Origin: a virus
Reading direction: 5' to 3' (one strand)
Length of the DNA: 64,000 bases
IMG/VR virus record: IMGVR_UViG_3300021375_000018
Coordinates: 23,119-87,118 of that record
The notes below the pieces were generated by a model. That model ran no database searches. It was not told the origin of the DNA and saw nothing but the letters and a program-made list of their open reading frames with translations. Position numbers and translations under genes: made by a program. Shown here in pieces: positions 36,551 to 42,925 of this stretch; the first letter of the stretch is position 1; every line of letters begins with the position of its first letter.

Positions 36551-38326
36551 ATGAATAATACATTTAATACGGAAAGGAGGTATCTAGAGAAGGTTGAACT
36601 TGAACTGCTTACACCTAACAGATTTGTTAGCTTGCATTCGCATTCAACCTTCTCGTAGATATCTACGTTTGATGGATTAGGTTATCCAGCAGATCACATC
36701 AACTTTGTTCTTTCTGAATCTCAAGGTATGGATGCTTGGGCTTTAACAGATCATGGAAACGGCAACGGTCTTGCTCATGCTCATTCACATGCTGTTAAAA
36801 TGCAAAAGAAAGGTCAAAAGTTTAGACAAATCTACGGTGTTGAATTCTATTTTGTACCTTCTCTAGAACAATGGTCAAAAGAATACTCAGATCATCGTCA
36901 AGCAGTCAAAGATGCAAAAACAGCAGCAGCTGCTGAAAAGAAATCAAAAGAAAAAGTTGATATCGATGCTGATGATGAAAGTGGTGGTTTAGTTATTGAA
37001 GACGAAGAAGAAACAAAGAAAATCGATATCCTTAAAGATGAATGGAAACGACGTTATCACCTTGTAGTCACTGCACGCAATAGAAAAGGCTTAAACAATC
37101 TTTTTACTCTTGTTAAGAAATCATATAAATATGGATTCTATCGATATCCTCGAATTGACTTTAAAATGTTAAAAGAACACGGTGAAGGTCTTCATGTATC
37201 AACAGCATGTTTAGGCGGACTTTTTAGCAATAGAATTCTAAGAGGTAATGCTCACAATAAATCACGTGATGAAATACAAAAAGATCTTCTAAACTTAACA
37301 GATAGATTTACAGACGCAGTTGGTTTAGAAAACTTTAAACTAGAACTACAATTTAACAAACTTAATAAGCAACACATTGTCAATGATTATTTGATAGAAC
37401 ATCATAAGCTAACAGGTATTCCATTGATATCTACAGCAGACTCACACTATCCAACAAATGATAAATGGCAAGCAAGAGAACTATACAAGAAACTTGGATG
37501 GTTAGGAAAAAAAGATGGAATGACTTTACCTACATTTGAAGATCTTAAATGTGAGTTATATCCAAAAAATGCACAACAAATGTGGGATGAGTTTTTAGAA
37601 TCATATCCTCTATATGATTTCTATAAAGGTAACGAAGAACTAGTCAAAGAATCAATTGAAAGAACACATGATATTGTATGGGAAAACTTTGAAGATACAT
37701 GGATCGATGTAGGTGCAAAACTACCTACGATATCAATTCCTAATAAAACGCCATTTCAGCACTTATGTGATTTAGTTAAAAGTGCTTTAATCAAAGAAGA
37801 ACTTCATAGTAATAAAGAATACGTTGAACGCGCAAAGTATGAATTATCTGATATTAAATACTTAGGCCATGCAGCTTATTTTATTACAATGTATGAGATC
37901 TTTAAAAAAGCTGAAACAAAGACTTTATTTGGAGCAGGACGTGGATCAGGTGCAGGTAGCTTAGTTAATTATCTTTTAGGTATTACTCAAATTGATCCGA
38001 TACCTTACAACTTACTTTGGAGCAGATTCTTAGGTAGACATAGATGTTTGGATGAAGACATATACATAATGTCTGAAAGTGGTAAAAAGAAACTTAAAGA
38101 TGTTGTTGAAGGCGAAAAAGTATTAACACATACAGGACAATATCAAAGAATTCTTGACAAAGCTGTGACACAACATGACATGGCAATTGAAATAAAGTTT
38201 AATGGTCGCAATATTATTTGTTCTCCTAATCATAGATGGATTATTAATCGCGATGGCGCCGAAGTAGAAACGATGGCATGTCACTTAAAAAAAGGTGACA
38301 AACTTATAAAAAATATACATACTTGA
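36551..38326 (+). CDS. dnaE: DNA polymerase III alpha fragment 1 (PHP domain + palm start + split intein N1), with in-frame TAG at 36656-36658
   Basis: FVSLHSHSTFS*ISTFDG in frame with ALTDHG, GVEFY, HLVV, TACLGG, ADSHY, GRGSGAGSLV, SRFL; after R-H-R the intein begins CLDED. Confidence 0.9.
38045..38323 (+). mobile_element. Split intein 1, N-fragment (93 aa)
   Basis: Block A CLDEDIYI, VLTHTG, block B ICSPNHRW, LKKGDKL then stop. Confidence 0.9.
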
Positions 38327-38364
38327 TATAGTTAATCCAAGAAAACATTTCCGGAGAAAGTTTT

Positions 38365-39288
38365 ATGGAAGAAAAAGAATATCGAAAAAATATTAGCTGC
38401 AAAAACTGTAAGATAGAATTTATTGTAAGATTTAAAATGTCAGATCAAGGTTCTATTGCAAAGTGCAATAAACTATATTGTAGTAAATTATGCAAAAAAG
38501 AATATCTTAAAAAAAATGGTACAAGTAATTCTATAGAACTTGTGTGTAGATATTGCAAATGCACTTACTATAAGCCTGAATCACTTTCAAAAAACTCAAA
38601 ATTCTGTAGTAGAGTTTGCCAAAATAGAAGTTATGCCAGTAGAAACAAGAAAGAAAAAAAGAACATTAATTGTAAAAACTGCAATAAAACTTTTATTGTT
38701 ATAGAAAACTCTAAAAGAAAGTACTGCAGTCATGAATGTAGTCATGCTGGACAAAAAGGCAAGACAAAAATATTTACATGTGCAGTCTGCAAGGAAGAAA
38801 AGCACATACTTGAAAATGACAATAGGATGTATTGTGGTAGAAATTGCCAGTATAAGGCACAGTCTTTAGGTTTAATTAAGATTCCAACAAAAGGAAGATC
38901 AGGTTATAGAACTGATTTGCCTGATGATATGCGTTTTAAAAGTTCACTTGAAGCAGACTATGCAAGATTTTTAAAATATAAAAAAATAGACTTTAAATAT
39001 GAAAGTAAGTGCTTTGAGCTTATTGACAAAGGTAAAATAAGAAGATATACACCAGACTTTTACATAGAAAAAGAAGGCTTATATGTTGAATTAAAAGCAG
39101 GTAGAAAAGACAAGAAATACTCTAAAAATTTAGAGTGCGTGCAATTAGTAAAAAATATTGGTTACAATATAAAAGTAATATACATGTCGGAATTTTATGA
39201 CATGCTTAAGAAAGAAAAATTATATGAGGAGATTCCAAACATTGAAAGACGCAACTACAAAAAGTCAAGACACCTTATACGAAATTGA
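38365..39288 (+). CDS. Zn-finger-repeat PD-(D/E)XK endonuclease inserted between the halves of split intein 1
   Basis: CxxC repeats; FKSSLEADYAR..YE..YTPDFY..YVELKA. Confidence 0.85.
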   Translation: MEEKEYRKNISCKNCKIEFIVRFKMSDQGSIAKCNKLYCSKLCKKEYLKKNGTSNSIELVCRYCKCTYYKPESLSKNSKFCSRVCQNRSYASRNKKEKKNINCKNCNKTFIVIENSKRKYCSHECSHAGQKGKTKIFTCAVCKEEKHILENDNRMYCGRNCQYKAQSLGLIKIPTKGRSGYRTDLPDDMRFKSSLEADYARFLKYKKIDFKYESKCFELIDKGKIRRYTPDFYIEKEGLYVELKAGRKDKKYSKNLECVQLVKNIGYNIKVIYMSEFYDMLKKEKLYEEIPNIERRNYKKSRHLIRN

Positions 39289-41802: not shown

Positions 41803-41825
41803 ATTAATATTAAATATTATATTAT
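41797..41825 (+). promoter_or_regulatory. Phage promoter GTGTAAA-N16-TATTAT for DnaE fragment 3
   Basis: Motif overlaps the endonuclease stop codon; AAAGG RBS follows. Confidence 0.7.
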
Positions 41826-41842
41826 AAAACAAAAAAGAAAGG

Positions 41843-42925
41843 TTGATAATGCCTCGTATTAAATCAATTGAATTTACTAATAAGCAGCAGACATTTGACT
41901 TGGAGGTTGCGCATCATGATCATCAATATTATTTAAGTAATGGGATTCTTCAATCAAACTCCCATGCTGTTGCTTATGCAATTGGTTCGTATTATGCTGC
42001 TTGGCTACACACACATTATGAGCCTGAATGGCTTGCTGCTATTTTACAGTCTGAAAATGGTAACCCTAAGGATATGTCAAAAGCAATATCAGAGATTAAA
42101 TCTTTTGGATACGAAATTGCTGCTATAGACATTAATCATTCAGGTACAGAATGGGAATATTCAGAAGAGTTAAAAGCATTTGTTCCACCTTTGACATCAC
42201 TTAAAGGTGTAGGAGATAAAGCTGTTGAAGAAGTATTTAGAAATCGCCCTTATAAAGATTTAAATAATTTGTTTTATGATGAAGAAGGTAAATGGAAACA
42301 TTCAAAATTAAATAAAACAGCATTCGTTTCACTTGCAAAAATGGAATCATTTAAATCATTGGAAGAATTTAAAAGTGGAAAACTGAAACATCACAAGCAG
42401 CTTCATGATATGCTGATTGAAAATTATAATGACCTTAAAAAGGGTGAGTGGGGAATAACAAAGACAGCATATAAAAGAATGATTAAAAAAGGTGAGGTGC
42501 CTATTAAAATAGTAGATAGGTTATCAGATGAGTATGAGTTATTAGATGATTGGACAAGATCTGAGAAGATTAAAAATTATTTTGAGTTATCTAATGATGC
42601 ATCTGATGATTTGTTATTTCCTCCTGAGTTATTGCAGAGGTTAAAAGATAAGTCTGTTAATTCTGTATTTGAGATAGAGAGTGGTAAAAAAGGAATTGGG
42701 TGGTTTACAGTAGTAGAAGTTATAAGAAAGACAACGAAGACTGGCAAGCCTTTTATGAGATGGAAATGTGTTGATTCTGATAATCGTAGTGGATGGTTAA
42801 GAGTGTGGGGAAATATAGATGATGATATAGAGTATGCGACTTGGATGTCTGAAGTTAAGAATGATGGTGGATGGGGAATGTCAACTAATTCAAGTAAAGT
42901 TAGAAAAATCAGTGCTTTTGATTAA
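41843..42925 (+). CDS. dnaE: DnaE fragment 3 (intein C2 + HhH/OB C-terminus); likely start ATG 41849
   Basis: MPRIKSIEF..TFDLEV..YYLSNGILQSN/SHAVAYA..WLHTHY; DINHS; LKGVG; OB-like TKTGKPF. Confidence 0.92.
   Translation: MIMPRIKSIEFTNKQQTFDLEVAHHDHQYYLSNGILQSNSHAVAYAIGSYYAAWLHTHYEPEWLAAILQSENGNPKDMSKAISEIKSFGYEIAAIDINHSGTEWEYSEELKAFVPPLTSLKGVGDKAVEEVFRNRPYKDLNNLFYDEEGKWKHSKLNKTAFVSLAKMESFKSLEEFKSGKLKHHKQLHDMLIENYNDLKKGEWGITKTAYKRMIKKGEVPIKIVDRLSDEYELLDDWTRSEKIKNYFELSNDASDDLLFPPELLQRLKDKSVNSVFEIESGKKGIGWFTVVEVIRKTTKTGKPFMRWKCVDSDNRSGWLRVWGNIDDDIEYATWMSEVKNDGGWGMSTNSSKVRKISAFD
41849..41959 (+). mobile_element. Split intein 2, C-fragment (37 aa)
   Basis: Ends in SN with Ser at +1; architecture like the cyanobacterial DnaE IntC. 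Confidence 0.9.

What the first reader, a model, noticed from the sequence alone, without database searches (positions are those of the whole stretch)
36551..42925. Doubly fractured DnaE: three polypeptides joined by two different split inteins, each split by a different endonuclease gene
Seen: fragment 1 ends in IntN1 (RHR/CLDED...stop). A PD-(D/E)XK gene follows, then fragment 2 (IntC1 ...THN/TSWPDIDTD ... YGFNK/SLL IntN2), a Vsr-like gene, and fragment 3 (IntC2 ...QSN/SHAVAY) with its own promoter. Known: single fractured genes with a split intein and an intervening homing endonuclease are described from phage metagenomes. Inference: this polymerase needs two mutually orthogonal trans-splicing reactions, making it a natural three-piece ligation system.
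Basis: partly seen in the sequence, partly recalled or inferred. Interest (0 to 1): 0.85.

Follow-up and report, generated by a model that had tools for sequence, protein, structure and literature searches.

The report
Three-piece phage DnaE, two split inteins
An uncultured marine giant phage encodes its replicative DNA polymerase as three separate genes that two unrelated split inteins should stitch together, each break holding a selfish nuclease gene, and the gene's start carries a third scar that ribosomes probably have to hop over.

Summary
The dnaE gene (Pol III alpha) lies in three same-strand ORFs: extein 1 + IntN1 (to 38326), IntC1 + extein 2 + IntN2 (39224-40894), and IntC2 + extein 3 (41849-42925). 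A T7-endonuclease-I-like nuclease gene (38365-39288) and a DUF559 nuclease gene (40825-41802) sit between the intein halves.

Uninterrupted relatives join the three exteins exactly at the predicted junctions (RHR|TSW, FNK|SHA). Among 80 related IMG/VR loci, site 1 is occupied in 11 of 80 and site 2 in 6 of 78. Both are occupied in two contigs, which may be one lineage. Relatives with more fractures exist, up to four pieces.

The two inteins are unrelated: gp41-1-like with Cys1/Thr+1, and cyanobacterial-DnaE-like with Ser1/Ser+1. Both are under purifying selection. Contiguous relatives exist at both sites. No intron was detected.

This is a new variant of the "fractured genes" of Dassa et al. 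2009. This scan has already noted three-piece nrdA and clamp-loader genes on other DNA.

It belongs to a Ser-stop-gap-Ser scar left by a third endonuclease cassette. I found 15 gap variants in three frames, with both sides under purifying selection. This is probably a miniature ribosomal hop of the T4 gene 60 type. Nothing has been shown at the bench.

The parts
36383..36445 (+). Remnant 'copy A' of dnaE codons 1-21 (LSIELITPPNRFVSLHSHSTF). It is the original 5' end, now cut off from the gene and preceded by a promoter-like motif at 36328-36356.
   Evidence: At protein level it equals the N-terminus of uninterrupted relatives such as L004 and L005. A contig of run X5 joins 36445 directly to 36664, with AG in between, which is the plain allele.
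36446..36496 (+). Relic of the 3' end of a deleted endonuclease gene (...MLFWEGK..). It overlaps the promoter-like motif GTGTAAAT-N15-TATAAT at 36487-36515.
   Evidence: Relatives carry a 297-308 aa T7-endonuclease-I-like ORF ending in ..[IL][LNFH]WEGK at this place. The motif occurs 8 times in the window against 0.11 expected.
36551..36655 (+). Cassette-borne new 5' end of dnaE: a 35-codon ORF with a unique leader and a replacement copy of codons ~5-22. It ends in the Ser codon TCG (36653-36655, proposed take-off codon).
   Evidence: Between gap-bearing lineages the 13 codons before the gap give pS 0.30-0.83 against pN 0.03-0.28.
36656..36661 (+). 6-nt coding gap TAGATA, beginning with a stop codon.
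   Evidence: It is absent from uninterrupted alleles. There are 15 distinct gap variants in relatives, all starting with a stop.
36662..38044 (+). Rest of extein 1, from the Ser codon TCT (36662-36664, proposed landing codon). It holds the PHP domain and the start of the palm and ends ...RFLGRHR.
   Evidence: Pfam PHP and DNA_pol3_alpha. The 21-23 codons between the landing codon and the next Met give pS 0.46-1.08 against pN 0.04-0.19 among gap-bearing lineages.
38045..38326 (+). IntN1 (93 aa, Cys1, block-B-like SPNH) plus the TGA stop.
   Evidence: Best PDB match is the gp41-1 intein, E 0.0035. Pfam Intein_splicing E 7e-5, below the cut-off. pN/pS 0.16 against L020.
38365..39288 (+). HEG1: free-standing nuclease gene with N-terminal Cys-rich repeats and a C-terminal T7-endonuclease-I-like PD-(D/E)XK domain.
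   Evidence: phmmer against T7 endonuclease I gives E 0.04, with the LE / PDF / ExK motifs aligned. A family profile (A3) against PDB 1m0d gives E 1.5e-9. pN/pS 0.14.
39224..39400 (+). IntC1 (...DIEVEGDHTFYISENPDADFVLTHN). Its start overlaps the end of HEG1. An alternative start is TTG 39242, behind an AGGAG.
   Evidence: pN/pS 0.06.
39401..40564 (+). Extein 2 (388 aa): TSWPDIDTD... (palm catalytic motif) through the fingers to ...AVYGFNK.
   Evidence: Pfam DNA_pol3_alpha and DNA_pol3_finger. Alignment to Thermus aquaticus Pol III alpha 2hpi, residues 456-817.
40565..40894 (+). IntN2 (109 aa, Ser1, TMHH) plus the TAA stop. Its last 70 nt overlap the start of HEG2.
   Evidence: PDB Npu/Ssp DnaE inteins, E 1.5e-9. 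The NCBIfam PRK09532 alignment runs into it. pN/pS 0.13.
40825..41802 (+). HEG2: free-standing nuclease gene with C2H2 and Ros/MucR-type zinc fingers and a DUF559 (Vsr-superfamily) domain.
   Evidence: Pfam DUF559 scores 22.9 bits against a cut-off of 20.6. It is found in 5 of 5 homologues. pS 0.66, pN 0.146.
41797..41830 (+). Promoter-like motif (GTGTAAAT-N15-TATTAT, one mismatch to the window's consensus) and the RBS AAAGAAAGG in front of fragment 3.
   Evidence: The core CATACGTGTAAA/CTTATGTGTAAA is kept in 5 of 5 loci with the site-2 fracture.
41849..41959 (+). IntC2 (37 aa, ...DLEVAHHDHQYYLSNGILQSN).
   Evidence: Predicted to dock on IntN2. The NCBIfam PRK07373 alignment starts at residue 3.
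41960..42925 (+). Extein 3 (321 aa, SHAVAYA..., HHH_6 and the C-terminal part) plus the stop.

Best explanation
The single dnaE gene seen in this 87-kb record (an uncultured marine phage; CheckV completeness 34%) has been invaded three times by homing-endonuclease-based elements. It is still expressed as a working polymerase. Shown from sequence: two class-1-type inteins sit at the two most conserved spots of Pol III alpha. Intein 1 lies five residues before the catalytic PDIDTD motif; intein 2 lies inside YGFNK|SH. Each intein has itself been split by a free-standing nuclease gene lodged at the usual endonuclease position of an intein. Inferred: three polypeptides are made. Fragment 1 is extein 1-IntN1. 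Fragment 2 is IntC1-extein 2-IntN2, probably on the same transcript as fragment 1 and HEG1. Fragment 3 is IntC2-extein 3, from its own promoter. IntN1 pairs with IntC1 and IntN2 pairs with IntC2. Two protein trans-splicing reactions then give a collinear protein of about 1204 residues (495+388+321, computed from the coordinates), identical in layout to the uninterrupted alleles. The pairs must be orthogonal. Fragment 2 has the IntC-X-IntN order, which would otherwise cyclise (an inference from recalled knowledge of SICLOPPS-type cyclisation). The nuclease genes are the mobile agents: they most likely cut intein alleles that lack the nuclease gene, or empty alleles, and are copied in by repair. 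Separately, and less surely (about 0.55), the 5' end is a scar of a third cassette (nuclease gene now deleted + new leader + replacement codons + 6-nt gap TAGATA). The ribosome probably hops from TCG (36653) to TCT (36662) to make extein 1 in one chain.
For: Collinearity: phrog_405 positions 74-439, 441-794 and 793-1022.

Exact junctions: in uninterrupted relatives extein 1, 2 and 3 abut with no gap (for example L004 5684-7000 | 7001-8164 | 8165-9127). They read RFLGRHR|TSWPDIDTD and YGFNK|SHA[VI]AYA. A contig of another sample (run X5) bridges 38041 to 39407 as RHR|VSW.

Splicing residues: Cys1, SPNH, THN|T for intein 1; Ser1, TMHH, SN|S for intein 2. They are invariant in 5 of 5 site-2 homologues.

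Homology to proven split inteins: IntN2 against Npu/Ssp DnaE, E 1.5e-9; IntN1 against gp41-1, E 0.0035.

Contiguous relatives at the same sites: L015 is one ORF through a 141-aa mini-intein at site 1. P0004 has a contiguous FNK|S...TSN|SHA intein at site 2.

Purifying selection, window against L020: IntN1 0.16, IntC1 0.06, IntN2 0.13, IntC2 0.14, HEG1 0.14 (pN/pS); HEG2 0.146/0.66.

Docking: IntN2 + IntC2 score 0.88 (median of 3 runs), best of 3 controls 0.00. The runs agree in 100% of contacts and the partner's pLDDT is at least 88. The mark was reached by 116 of 157 solved complexes and by 2 of 215 mismatches. Like complexes are solved, so the pass may be from memory.

Unrelated pairs: IntN1 against IntN2 gives no BLASTP alignment at E<=100. 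IntC1 against IntC2 shares only 10 of 28 identities.

Mobility: site 1 is occupied in 11 of 80 loci and site 2 in 6 of 78, scattered over the extein tree next to empty sisters. The window is sister to L004 (empty) and L005 (site 2 only).

The same double fracture occurs in L020, and in L019 as far as that contig reaches.

Hop: see the Full report section.
Against: There is no RNA, protein or bench evidence of any kind.

The curated intein models do not reach their cut-offs on the halves: Pfam Intein_splicing 23.1 and 14.1 bits against 35.8; TIGR01445 17.7 against 24.5.

Intein 2 lacks the penultimate His (..QSN|S). That residue is recalled as usual but not universal in active inteins.

The record is only 34% complete, so a second polymerase elsewhere cannot be excluded. 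None of family B was found in the 87 kb. One sub-threshold family A match lies at window 7408-7614.

Orthogonality rests on lack of similarity and on general experience with unrelated split inteins: 15 of 16 tested were mutually orthogonal in PMC7090010 (passages read). The cross pairs were not tested.

No promoter-like motif precedes fragment 2.

For the hop: no conserved or significant hairpin (z between -1.08 and +1.31 over eight gap-bearing loci). Three of the 15 variants have only a 2-of-3 match between the take-off and landing triplets.
Confidence: 0.85

Rival explanations
1. The nuclease genes are removed at the RNA level (group I or II introns). Each intein would then be translated contiguously and splice in cis.
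For: Vsr-like and other endonuclease genes do occur in phage group I introns (Dassa et al. 2009, PMC2677866, abstract and discussion read). All three dnaE pieces are in the same reading frame (coordinates).
Against: An Rfam scan of 36000-43200 at E<=1 finds no intron family, only two chance-level hits to SraG and the S15 leader. Each IntN ends in a stop conserved in relatives, and each IntC has its own ATG and ribosome-binding site. HEG1 overlaps the IntC1 start and HEG2 overlaps the IntN2 end, so the coding parts interlock. L079 has lost the nuclease gene yet keeps stop + restart between the halves, 435 nt in all. A conserved promoter-like motif sits before fragment 3.
Confidence: 0.03
2. The intein halves only hold the three fragments together without forming peptide bonds, as in the intein-less split NrdA of phage Aeh1 or in degenerate split-intein-like pairs.
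For: Non-covalent assembly of endonuclease-fractured phage enzymes is documented (Aeh1 NrdA, cited in PMC2677866, and in PMC3045599, abstract seen in the listing). This scan noted dnaE genes with dead split-intein-like ends on other DNA (e1-5766447, e1-5891099; not checked here). Intein 2 lacks the penultimate His.
Against: All nucleophiles and the terminal Asn are present and invariant in relatives. Empty alleles may carry Val at +1 of site 1 (L006, L008). All 11 occupied site-1 alleles seen keep THN|T. This fits selection for the +1 nucleophile. The contiguous relatives L015 and P0004 share these residues and must splice to give a working polymerase.
Confidence: 0.07
3. The locus is a decaying, non-functional dnaE, broken by selfish elements and by a stop at codon 36. 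Another polymerase does the work.
For: There is an in-frame TAG at 36656. The record is 34% complete. Three mobile-element insertions lie in one gene.
Against: pN/pS is 0.17-0.26 on the three exteins and 0.06-0.16 on the intein halves, at pS 0.4-0.8. The same architecture persists in lineages with 72-83% extein identity. Both sides of the gap are under purifying selection. dnaE is the only Pol III alpha locus in the 87 kb, and no family B polymerase was found.
Confidence: 0.05
4. For the 5' gap only: no hop occurs. The 35-residue peptide and the rest of fragment 1 are made separately (re-initiation or an internal start) and associate, or the first PHP strand is dispensable.
For: Short unaided hops are recalled as inefficient in E. 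coli. No conserved hairpin was found. ATA follows the TAG in the window, and a Met codon (36728) lies 22 codons downstream.
Against: There is no start-like codon after the stop in most variants (TAG GTA TCT; TAA TAA TCT). The 21-23 codons between the gap and that Met are under strong purifying selection in gap-bearing lineages. An extra triplet matching the take-off codon precedes the resumed frame in 12 of 15 variants, including a covarying AGT...AGT case. Separate polypeptides would not require this.
Confidence: 0.3

Closest known systems
'Fractured genes' of Dassa, London, Stoddard, Schueler-Furman and Pietrokovski 2009 (PMC2677866): 26 metagenomic loci, among them three DnaE loci (DnaE-1 to -3)
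   Same: [quoted passage not shown] The break lies at the usual endonuclease position of the intein. The nuclease 3' end overlaps the IntC start at site 1. The origin is marine and phage-like. [quoted passage not shown]
   Different: Here two complete fractures lie in one gene on one contig, with both nuclease genes and all three fragments. [quoted passage not shown] There is no TATAAATA late-promoter hairpin. Whether sites 1 and 2 equal any of their three DnaE sites could not be checked, because the supplement is a PDF that cannot be read here.
Cyanobacterial naturally split DnaE intein (Npu/Ssp DnaE; PDB 4lx3, 4qfq, 2keq, 1zde)
   Same: Same host protein and same conserved fingers motif. IntN2 is homologous (E 1.5e-9) and breaks at the same point of the intein. 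The NCBIfam models of the cyanobacterial half-genes (PRK09532, PRK07373) align through IntN2 and from residue 3 of IntC2.
   Different: Ser1 and Ser+1 replace Cys1 and Cys+1, and ..SN replaces ..AN/HN. The halves are adjacent, with a nuclease gene between them, rather than in distant loci. By my recollection (not tested) the cyanobacterial insertion point is ...Y|CFNKSH, four residues upstream of FNK|SH.
gp41-1 split intein (PDB 6riz, 6qaz), from a fractured phage helicase gene
   Same: It is the best solved match of IntN1 (E 0.0035), and it is also a fractured-gene split intein.
   Different: The similarity is weak. The host protein differs, and the +1 residue here is Thr.
MobA / gene 60 translational-bypass element of T4-like phages (Manning and Atkins preprint, bioRxiv 10.1101/2022.08.31.505936; section 6 and passages read)
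   Same: The 5' scar has the same build: homing endonuclease gene, element-borne N-terminal extension, a replacement copy of the host codons that hold the target (their 'HomR'), then a short untranslatable insert with stops and/or frameshifts that begins with a stop right after the take-off codon and ends at a matching landing codon. The nuclease gene is often lost while the gap stays.
   Different: The gap is 2-9 nt instead of 20-50 nt. There is no conserved take-off stem-loop. The nuclease is T7-endonuclease-I-like, not HNH. The host gene is dnaE, not topoisomerase. The upstream remnant is a dead 21-codon stub, not a working ORF1. Bypass is unproven here.
Trichodesmium erythraeum dnaE with three inteins, one of them split
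   Same: Several inteins lie in one dnaE.
   Different: As recalled, only one of the three is split, so there are two polypeptides and no nuclease genes between the halves.

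Membership tests
Fractured gene (Dassa et al. 2009) | The parts of a conserved enzyme gene are kept in the original order, strand and locus. | tested here: met
   The three ORFs map consecutively on phrog_405. They abut exactly in uninterrupted relatives.
Fractured gene (Dassa et al. 2009) | Split-intein halves sit at the broken ends. | tested here: met
   IntN1/IntC1 and IntN2/IntC2.
Fractured gene (Dassa et al. 2009) | A free-standing endonuclease ORF lies between the halves. 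| tested here: met
   HEG1 38365-39288 and HEG2 40825-41802 are in another frame, with their own starts.
Fractured gene (Dassa et al. 2009) | The endonuclease 3' end overlaps the downstream IntC start by 6-69 bp (seen in 15 of their loci). | tested here: inconclusive
   Met at site 1: 65 nt with ATG 39224, 47 nt with TTG 39242. Not met at site 2: there is a 46-nt spacer holding a promoter-like motif, and HEG2's 5' end overlaps IntN2 by 70 nt instead.
Fractured gene (Dassa et al. 2009) | An RNA hairpin, often with TATAAATA, lies upstream of the endonuclease start. | tested here: inconclusive
   A small hairpin over the HEG1 ribosome-binding site and start gives -8.3 kcal/mol, z -1.48, with 15 of 200 shuffles as good. 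None was found for HEG2. TATAAATA is not enriched (20 against 18.9 expected) and lies next to neither gene.
Class 1 intein (HINT domain) | A nucleophile is the first residue, and block B reads T/S-x-x-H (block names recalled). | tested here: met
   Intein 1: Cys1 and SPNH. Intein 2: Ser1 and TMHH. Both are conserved in relatives.
Class 1 intein (HINT domain) | C-terminal Asn followed by Cys/Ser/Thr at +1. | tested here: met
   THN|T and QSN|S.
Class 1 intein (HINT domain) | Penultimate His. | tested here: not met
   Met for intein 1 (THN). Not met for intein 2 (QSN), nor for its contiguous relative P0004 (TSN).
Class 1 intein (HINT domain) | Curated family model over its cut-off. | tested here: not met
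   Pfam Intein_splicing gives 23.1, 14.1 and 13.6 bits against a cut-off of 35.8 on the halves, and 17.4 on the contiguous L015 intein. TIGR01445 gives 17.7 against 24.5. Homology to solved inteins is significant for IntN2.
Class 1 intein (HINT domain) | The two halves assemble into one HINT fold. | tested here: met
   Only the IntN2 + IntC2 prediction was run: score 0.88, best of 3 controls 0.00. The mark was reached by 116 of 157 solved complexes and 2 of 215 mismatches. The pass may be from likeness to solved split inteins.
Class 1 intein (HINT domain) | Protein splicing activity. | not testable with these tools
   Needs expression and mass spectrometry.
T7 endonuclease I-like PD-(D/E)XK nucleases (HEG1) | Catalytic Glu, Asp, Glu and Lys in the order of T7 endonuclease I. 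| tested here: met
   E196, D231, E242 and K244 are invariant in 12 of 12 family members. They align with the LE, PDF and ExK motifs of 1m0d.
T7 endonuclease I-like PD-(D/E)XK nucleases (HEG1) | Significant sequence match to the family. | tested here: met
   The profile of A3 against PDB 1m0d gives E 1.5e-9. As a single sequence, Pfam Phage_endo_I gives 23.7 bits, below its cut-off of 29.1.
Vsr-like (EDxHD, I-Bth0305I-type) homing endonucleases (HEG2) | A Vsr-superfamily nuclease domain. | tested here: inconclusive
   Pfam DUF559 is over its cut-off (22.9 against 20.6) and is found in 5 of 5 homologues. Neither phmmer nor the A5 profile finds Vsr or I-Bth0305I in the PDB at E<=1. That DUF559 belongs with Vsr is recalled.
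Homing endonuclease (both HEGs) | Site-specific cleavage of the allele that lacks the gene, and presence/absence polymorphism. | tested here: inconclusive
   The polymorphism is shown. Cleavage is not testable here.
MobA-type bypass cassette (5' scar) | Endonuclease gene + N-terminal extension + replacement host codons + insert ending at the landing codon. | tested here: met
   Full nuclease ORFs directly upstream in L007, L022, L037, L046, L058 and L072, and a contig-cut one of at least 278 aa in L019. There are relics in the window, L017 and L031. The right edge of the insert lies within the landing codon.
MobA-type bypass cassette (5' scar) | A stop (or hungry codon) directly after the take-off codon, and a matching landing codon. 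| tested here: met
   A stop follows in 15 of 15 distinct variants. The landing triplet is of the same codon family in 12 of 15 and matches 2 of 3 bases in the other 3.
MobA-type bypass cassette (5' scar) | Take-off stem-loop and a gap of 20-50 nt. | tested here: not met
   The gaps are 2-9 nt. No conserved hairpin was found: z is -1.08 to +1.31 over eight gap-bearing loci.
MobA-type bypass cassette (5' scar) | Ribosomes actually bypass the gap. | not testable with these tools
   Needs reporter fusions or mass spectrometry.

The most novel reading that the evidence does not exclude
The 5' end of this dnaE holds a member of a widespread, undescribed family of micro coding gaps. A homing-endonuclease cassette (T7-endonuclease-I-like nuclease + new leader + replacement codons) leaves 2-9 untranslatable bases that start with a stop codon. 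Ribosomes must hop from a Ser codon to a matching Ser codon 5-12 nt downstream, in any of the three frames, to make the polymerase. If so, one essential protein is assembled by three different repair tricks for selfish DNA: one ribosomal hop and two orthogonal protein trans-splicing reactions. Programmed bypassing would then be a general immunity and repair device of phage homing cassettes rather than a gene 60 curiosity.
Probability: 0.5. Interest if true: 0.88.

Novelty: new variant of a known kind. Interest (0 to 1): 0.7.

Why it matters
Natural proteins that need two trans-splicing reactions do not appear in the literature I could search. The only hint is one truncated locus in Dassa et al. 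2009. Here the complete case is documented, together with its evolutionary series in public contigs at site 1: empty site, contiguous mini-intein, split intein with a nuclease gene, and split intein after loss of that gene. Four-piece relatives also exist.

For protein engineers it offers a pair of split inteins that nature has already selected to work side by side in one protein without cross-reaction. The middle fragment would otherwise cyclise. One of the two uses only serine nucleophiles. It also adds a T7-endonuclease-I-like family to the nucleases found inside inteins.

For evolution, intein 2 links phage fractured dnaE genes to the cyanobacterial split DnaE intein.

The 5' gap, if ribosomes really hop it, would make short programmed bypassing directly testable with many natural variants.

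Tried and rejected
RNA evidence: the look-up of sequencing runs listed 24 holders and none is on record as RNA, so expression and RNA splicing could not be examined. Contigs of four DNA runs were laid instead.

The generic sigma-70 and terminator scan was uninformative: 40 sites against 36.6 expected, 2 terminators against 1.9.

The T4 late promoter TATAAATA is not enriched and lies at neither nuclease gene.

Hairpins at the 5' gap are neither conserved nor significant.

Rfam found no intron and nothing else credible in 36000-43200.

No tRNA gene lies in the window. All three stop codons end ordinary ORFs (TAA 43, TGA 10, TAG 7 of 60). I therefore rejected a reassigned TAG or a phage suppressor as the reading of the TAG at 36656. 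The frame-changing variants and double stops in relatives also exclude read-through.

The supplement of Dassa et al. 2009, which holds the DnaE locus sequences, is a PDF that cannot be read here, so I could not say whether sites 1 and 2 are their sites.

No cultured phage has a close relative: the best is under 32% identity.

HEG2 against Vsr or I-Bth0305I in the PDB: no match.

Cross pairs (IntN1 + IntC2, IntN2 + IntC1) were not folded, because only one complex job is allowed.

The insertion point of the cyanobacterial intein relative to site 2 was not verified by any search.

Full report
What the window is. The window is bases 23119-87118 of an 87,118-base IMG/VR virus record that CheckV rates 34% complete. 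G+C is about 29%. PHROG matches show a phage replication and nucleotide-metabolism region: UvsX-like recombinase, DnaB-like helicase, RNR large and small subunits, ThyX, dCMP deaminase and a prohead protease. DNA runs that hold the stretch are seawater or marine metagenomes. The nearest cultured phage has under 32% identity in the polymerase.

The observation. ORF listing and translation confirm five same-strand ORFs:
- Fragment 1 ends ...RFLGRHR|CLDED... (IntN1 38045-38323, stop 38324-38326).
- HEG1 is 38365-39288.
- Fragment 2 carries IntC1 (to 39400, ...VLTHN), extein 2 (39401-40564) and IntN2 (40565-40891, starting SLLFNT).
- HEG2 is 40825-41802.
- Fragment 3 begins MPRIK...ILQSN|SHAVAYA (IntC2 41849-41959) and runs to 42925.

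The three pieces match consecutive parts of one polymerase profile: phrog_405 positions 74-439, 441-794 and 793-1022. They also match consecutive parts of Pfam PHP/DNA_pol3_alpha, DNA_pol3_alpha/DNA_pol3_finger and HHH_6, and of NCBIfam DnaE models. All three pieces are in one frame; both nuclease genes are in another.

In-silico splicing checked against nature. A search of IMG/VR with extein 2 returned 80 loci, the best of 137 confirmed relatives. A tblastn of ten separate components against them shows that in most loci extein 1, 2 and 3 abut with no gap, for example L004 5684-7000 | 7001-8164 | 8165-9127 at 92-97% identity. Their junctions read RFLGRHR|TSWPDIDTD (or VSWPDIDTD) and YGFNK|SHA[VI]AYA, which are exactly the predicted splice junctions. 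Against Thermus aquaticus Pol III alpha (2hpi), site 1 lies just before the PDIDTD motif and site 2 lies in ...YGFNKS(H). A contig of another study's sample (run X5) bridges 38041 to 39407 as an empty site-1 allele.

How common each state is. Site 1 is occupied in 11 of 80 loci:
- Six have a HEG1 homologue between the halves (L014, L019, L020, L043, L060, L061).
- One is a contiguous 141-aa mini-intein inside one long ORF (L015).
- Two are split without a nuclease gene (L079: stop, 3 codons, ATG; L037: frame change).
- Two have other, longer inserts (L058, L082).

Site 2 is occupied in 6 of the 78 loci that reach it (L005, L010, L011, L019, L020, L078), always with a HEG2 homologue. Both sites are occupied in L020 and in L019 (cut inside HEG2). 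These two contigs have identical extein 2 and may be one lineage.

Other relatives carry further split inteins with Vsr-like or other nuclease genes at three more sites: extein 1 residue about 161 (LHVSTA|C...), extein 1 residue 407 (GRG|C...) and extein 2 residue 120. L079 combines three split inteins and so would need four polypeptides. On a maximum-likelihood tree of extein 2, every element is scattered beside empty sisters. The tree has 77 rows; L079, L080, L082 and L083 were left out for lack of a full-length hit. The window (both sites and the 5' gap) is sister to L004 (none) and L005 (site 2 only). This is the pattern of mobile elements with repeated gain and loss.

The inteins. Intein 1 has Cys1, SPNH, DIEVEGDHTF and THN|T. 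Intein 2 has Ser1, TMHH, DLEVAHHDHQYY and QSN|S, without the penultimate His. The block names are recalled.

IntN2 matches the Npu/Ssp DnaE split inteins (E 1.5e-9). The NCBIfam models of the cyanobacterial dnaE half-genes align through IntN2 and from residue 3 of IntC2. IntN1 matches the gp41-1 intein weakly (E 0.0035). Curated intein models stay below their cut-offs on the halves.

IntN1 and IntN2 share no BLASTP alignment. IntC1 and IntC2 share 10 of 28 residues around one motif.

A search of the large protein collection with IntN2 among longer proteins gave 5 hits. P0004 is a 1721-aa DnaE with a contiguous relative of intein 2 at FNK|S...TSN|SHA, plus a LAGLIDADG intein at the GRG|C site. 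P0003 and P0005 end in an IntN2-like half.

Purifying selection acts on all parts. For the window against L020, pN/pS is 0.16 (IntN1), 0.06 (IntC1), 0.13 (IntN2), 0.14 (IntC2), 0.14 (HEG1) and 0.17-0.26 (exteins) at pS 0.40-0.77. HEG2 has pS 0.66 and pN 0.146.

The one complex job (IntN2 alignment A1 with IntC2 alignment A2) scored 0.88 against 0.00 for the best of 3 controls. The runs agreed in 100% of contacts and the partner's pLDDT was at least 88. The mark was reached by 116 of 157 solved complexes and by 2 of 215 mismatches. Because split-intein complexes are solved, the pass shows likeness and may be from memory.

The nucleases. HEG1 has Cys-rich repeats and a C-terminal domain whose LE, PDF and ExK motifs align with T7 endonuclease I. 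I aligned twelve relatives: HEG1 types, the 5'-cassette nucleases, and the window's own ORF 27016-27792. The Glu, Asp, Glu and Lys are invariant in this alignment, and its profile finds T7 endonuclease I at E 1.5e-9.

The intein-associated nuclease types listed in the papers I read are LAGLIDADG, HNH, GIY-YIG, Vsr-like and, newly, endonuclease VII-like (PMC2677866; bioRxiv 10.1101/2025.01.02.630785, passages). A T7-endonuclease-I-like type is not among them.

HEG2 has a C2H2 finger, a Ros/MucR-type finger and DUF559 over Pfam's cut-off in 5 of 5 homologues. No direct match to Vsr or I-Bth0305I was found.

Expression signals. The motif GTGTAAAT-N15-TATAAT occurs 8 times in the window, all on the + strand and mostly before ORFs, against 0.11 expected. 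One copy (36487) precedes the 36551 ATG. A one-mismatch copy (41797) precedes fragment 3, overlapping the HEG2 stop; its core and the following AAAGAAAGG are kept in 5 of 5 site-2 loci. None precedes fragment 2 or either nuclease gene. Fragment 1, HEG1 and fragment 2 are therefore probably co-transcribed (inference).

Rivals. No Rfam intron family matches at E<=1, and the coding parts interlock, so RNA splicing is unlikely. Non-covalent assembly cannot be excluded without a bench test, but the conserved nucleophiles argue against it, as does the restriction of Val at +1 to empty alleles. Decay is contradicted by the selection figures.

The third discontinuity. Uninterrupted relatives start LSIELITPPNRFVSLHSHSTFSTFDGLGYP.... 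In the window this start survives only as a 21-codon stub (36383-36445). It is followed by the last codons of a lost nuclease gene (..FWEGK), a promoter-like motif, a new ATG (36551), a 35-codon ORF ending ...HSHSTF-TCG, then TAG ATA, then TCT and the rest of the gene.

A contig of run X5 joins 36445 to 36664, with AG between, as the plain allele. This fixes the edges of the insert.

Of the 79 extein-2-search loci that include the 5' end, 14 have the same kind of break. A second IMG/VR search with the cassette nuclease (A4) gave 79 loci. Of these, 25 have dnaE downstream, 19 of them with a gap and 6 without.

Over all gap-bearing loci there are 15 distinct variants. In 15 of 15 a stop codon directly follows a Ser codon. 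The frame resumes 5, 7, 9, 10, 11 or 12 nt after the start of that codon, so in any of the three frames. The triplet just before the resumed codon belongs to the same Ser codon family in 12 of 15 variants, including one AGT...AGT case among the TCN...TCN ones. In the remaining 3 it matches 2 of 3 bases.

The product after a hop would have exactly the wild-type length (HS.FS-TFDG).

Both sides are under purifying selection among gap-bearing lineages. Downstream, over the 21-23 codons before the next Met, pS is 0.46-1.08 and pN 0.04-0.19. Over the 13 upstream codons, pS is 0.30-0.83 and pN 0.03-0.28.

Read-through is excluded by the frame-changing variants and double stops, by normal use of all three stop codons, and by the absence of tRNA genes in the window.

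The take-off codon is TCG or TCC in 11 of 15 variants. In the window's 60 ORFs these two are 75 of 1678 Ser codons.

No conserved hairpin was found.

The build equals that of the MobA/gene 60 element as described in the 2022 preprint, but in miniature and with another nuclease family.

I rate a ribosomal hop at about 0.5-0.55. The main alternative is two separately made chains.

Earlier notes of this scan. I looked these up after I had reached the readings above. Two notes describe three-piece nrdA and clamp-loader genes with two split inteins on other DNA. One describes endonuclease-linked micro coding gaps of 9, 8 and 5 bases. They agree with what I found but were not tested here and are not independent evidence. 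A first-reader note on this window (e1-6123630) led me to look for further copies of the dnaE 5' stub. I confirmed them at 31057-31173 and 32215-32345.

Literature. Searches for natural genes with two split inteins found nothing beyond the sentence in Dassa et al. 2009 on an additional intein C-part in DnaE-1. The library lacks most subscription journals, and the 2009 supplement was unreadable, so 'undescribed' is provisional.

Verdict. The finding is real and correctly read. It is a new variant (double, complete, recurrent) of a known kind. It comes with a useful pair of presumably orthogonal split inteins, a nuclease family new to inteins, and an unexpected, possibly more novel, micro coding gap at the gene's start.

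Noticed in passing
window 31057-31173 and 32215-32345: There are two more copies of the unit [GTGTAAAT promoter-like motif + dnaE codons 1-21]. The first is complete (LSIELITPPNRFVSLHSHSTF) and breaks at the same codon boundary as the stub at 36445. The second is truncated after ..DRFV. Each lies next to a minus-strand ORF (31191-32189, 32349-33341). The break after HSHSTF looks like a recurrent insertion or recombination point.
   Followed up: partly
window 27016-27795: This is a third member of the T7-endonuclease-I-like nuclease family (41% identical to HEG1, catalytic residues kept). It stands free between other genes, so the phage carries at least three loci with genes or relics of this family.
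   Followed up: partly
L079 (IMG/VR contig), locus 1866-8764: This relative's dnaE is in four pieces. It has split inteins with Vsr-like nuclease genes at extein 1 residue ~161 and extein 2 residue ~120, plus the site-1 split intein without a nuclease gene. L082 (two fractures) and L037 (site b + site 1 + 5' gap) are other multiply broken relatives.
   Followed up: partly
L038, locus about 5560-5620: In this relative the HxH part of the PHP motif is replaced in frame by a G+C-rich perfect 10-bp hairpin (reading ..FVGAAPGLFRGGFSGFSTFDG..), with no stop. This is a different, unexplained alteration of the same spot.
   Followed up: no
window 33438-36302 (-) and 42986-44902 (-): Two large minus-strand ORFs flank dnaE. 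They share a similar N-terminal region (..W.DFL.., MTWCTS/MNWCTS.., HMYY.IKK) and have no PHROG match. The second has a run of repeats of about 30 residues (..DLLE.DP[ST]GE[IL]I[RK][QK]LA..).
   Followed up: no
window 36653-36655 and relatives: The codon before the gap is TCG or TCC in 11 of 15 variants. These are the two rarest Ser codons of the window (75 of 1678). Uninterrupted alleles use AGC, AGT, TCA or TCG there.
   Followed up: partly
L097, L099, L105, L107, L111: Here the cassette-type nuclease gene lies directly upstream of dnaE, but the gene has no gap. Immunity to the nuclease, if needed, must rest on substitutions in these lineages.
   Followed up: no
L006, L008 and run X5 contig at window 38041-39407: Empty site-1 alleles may have Val instead of Thr at the +1 position (RHR|VSW). 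All 11 occupied alleles seen keep Thr.
   Followed up: partly
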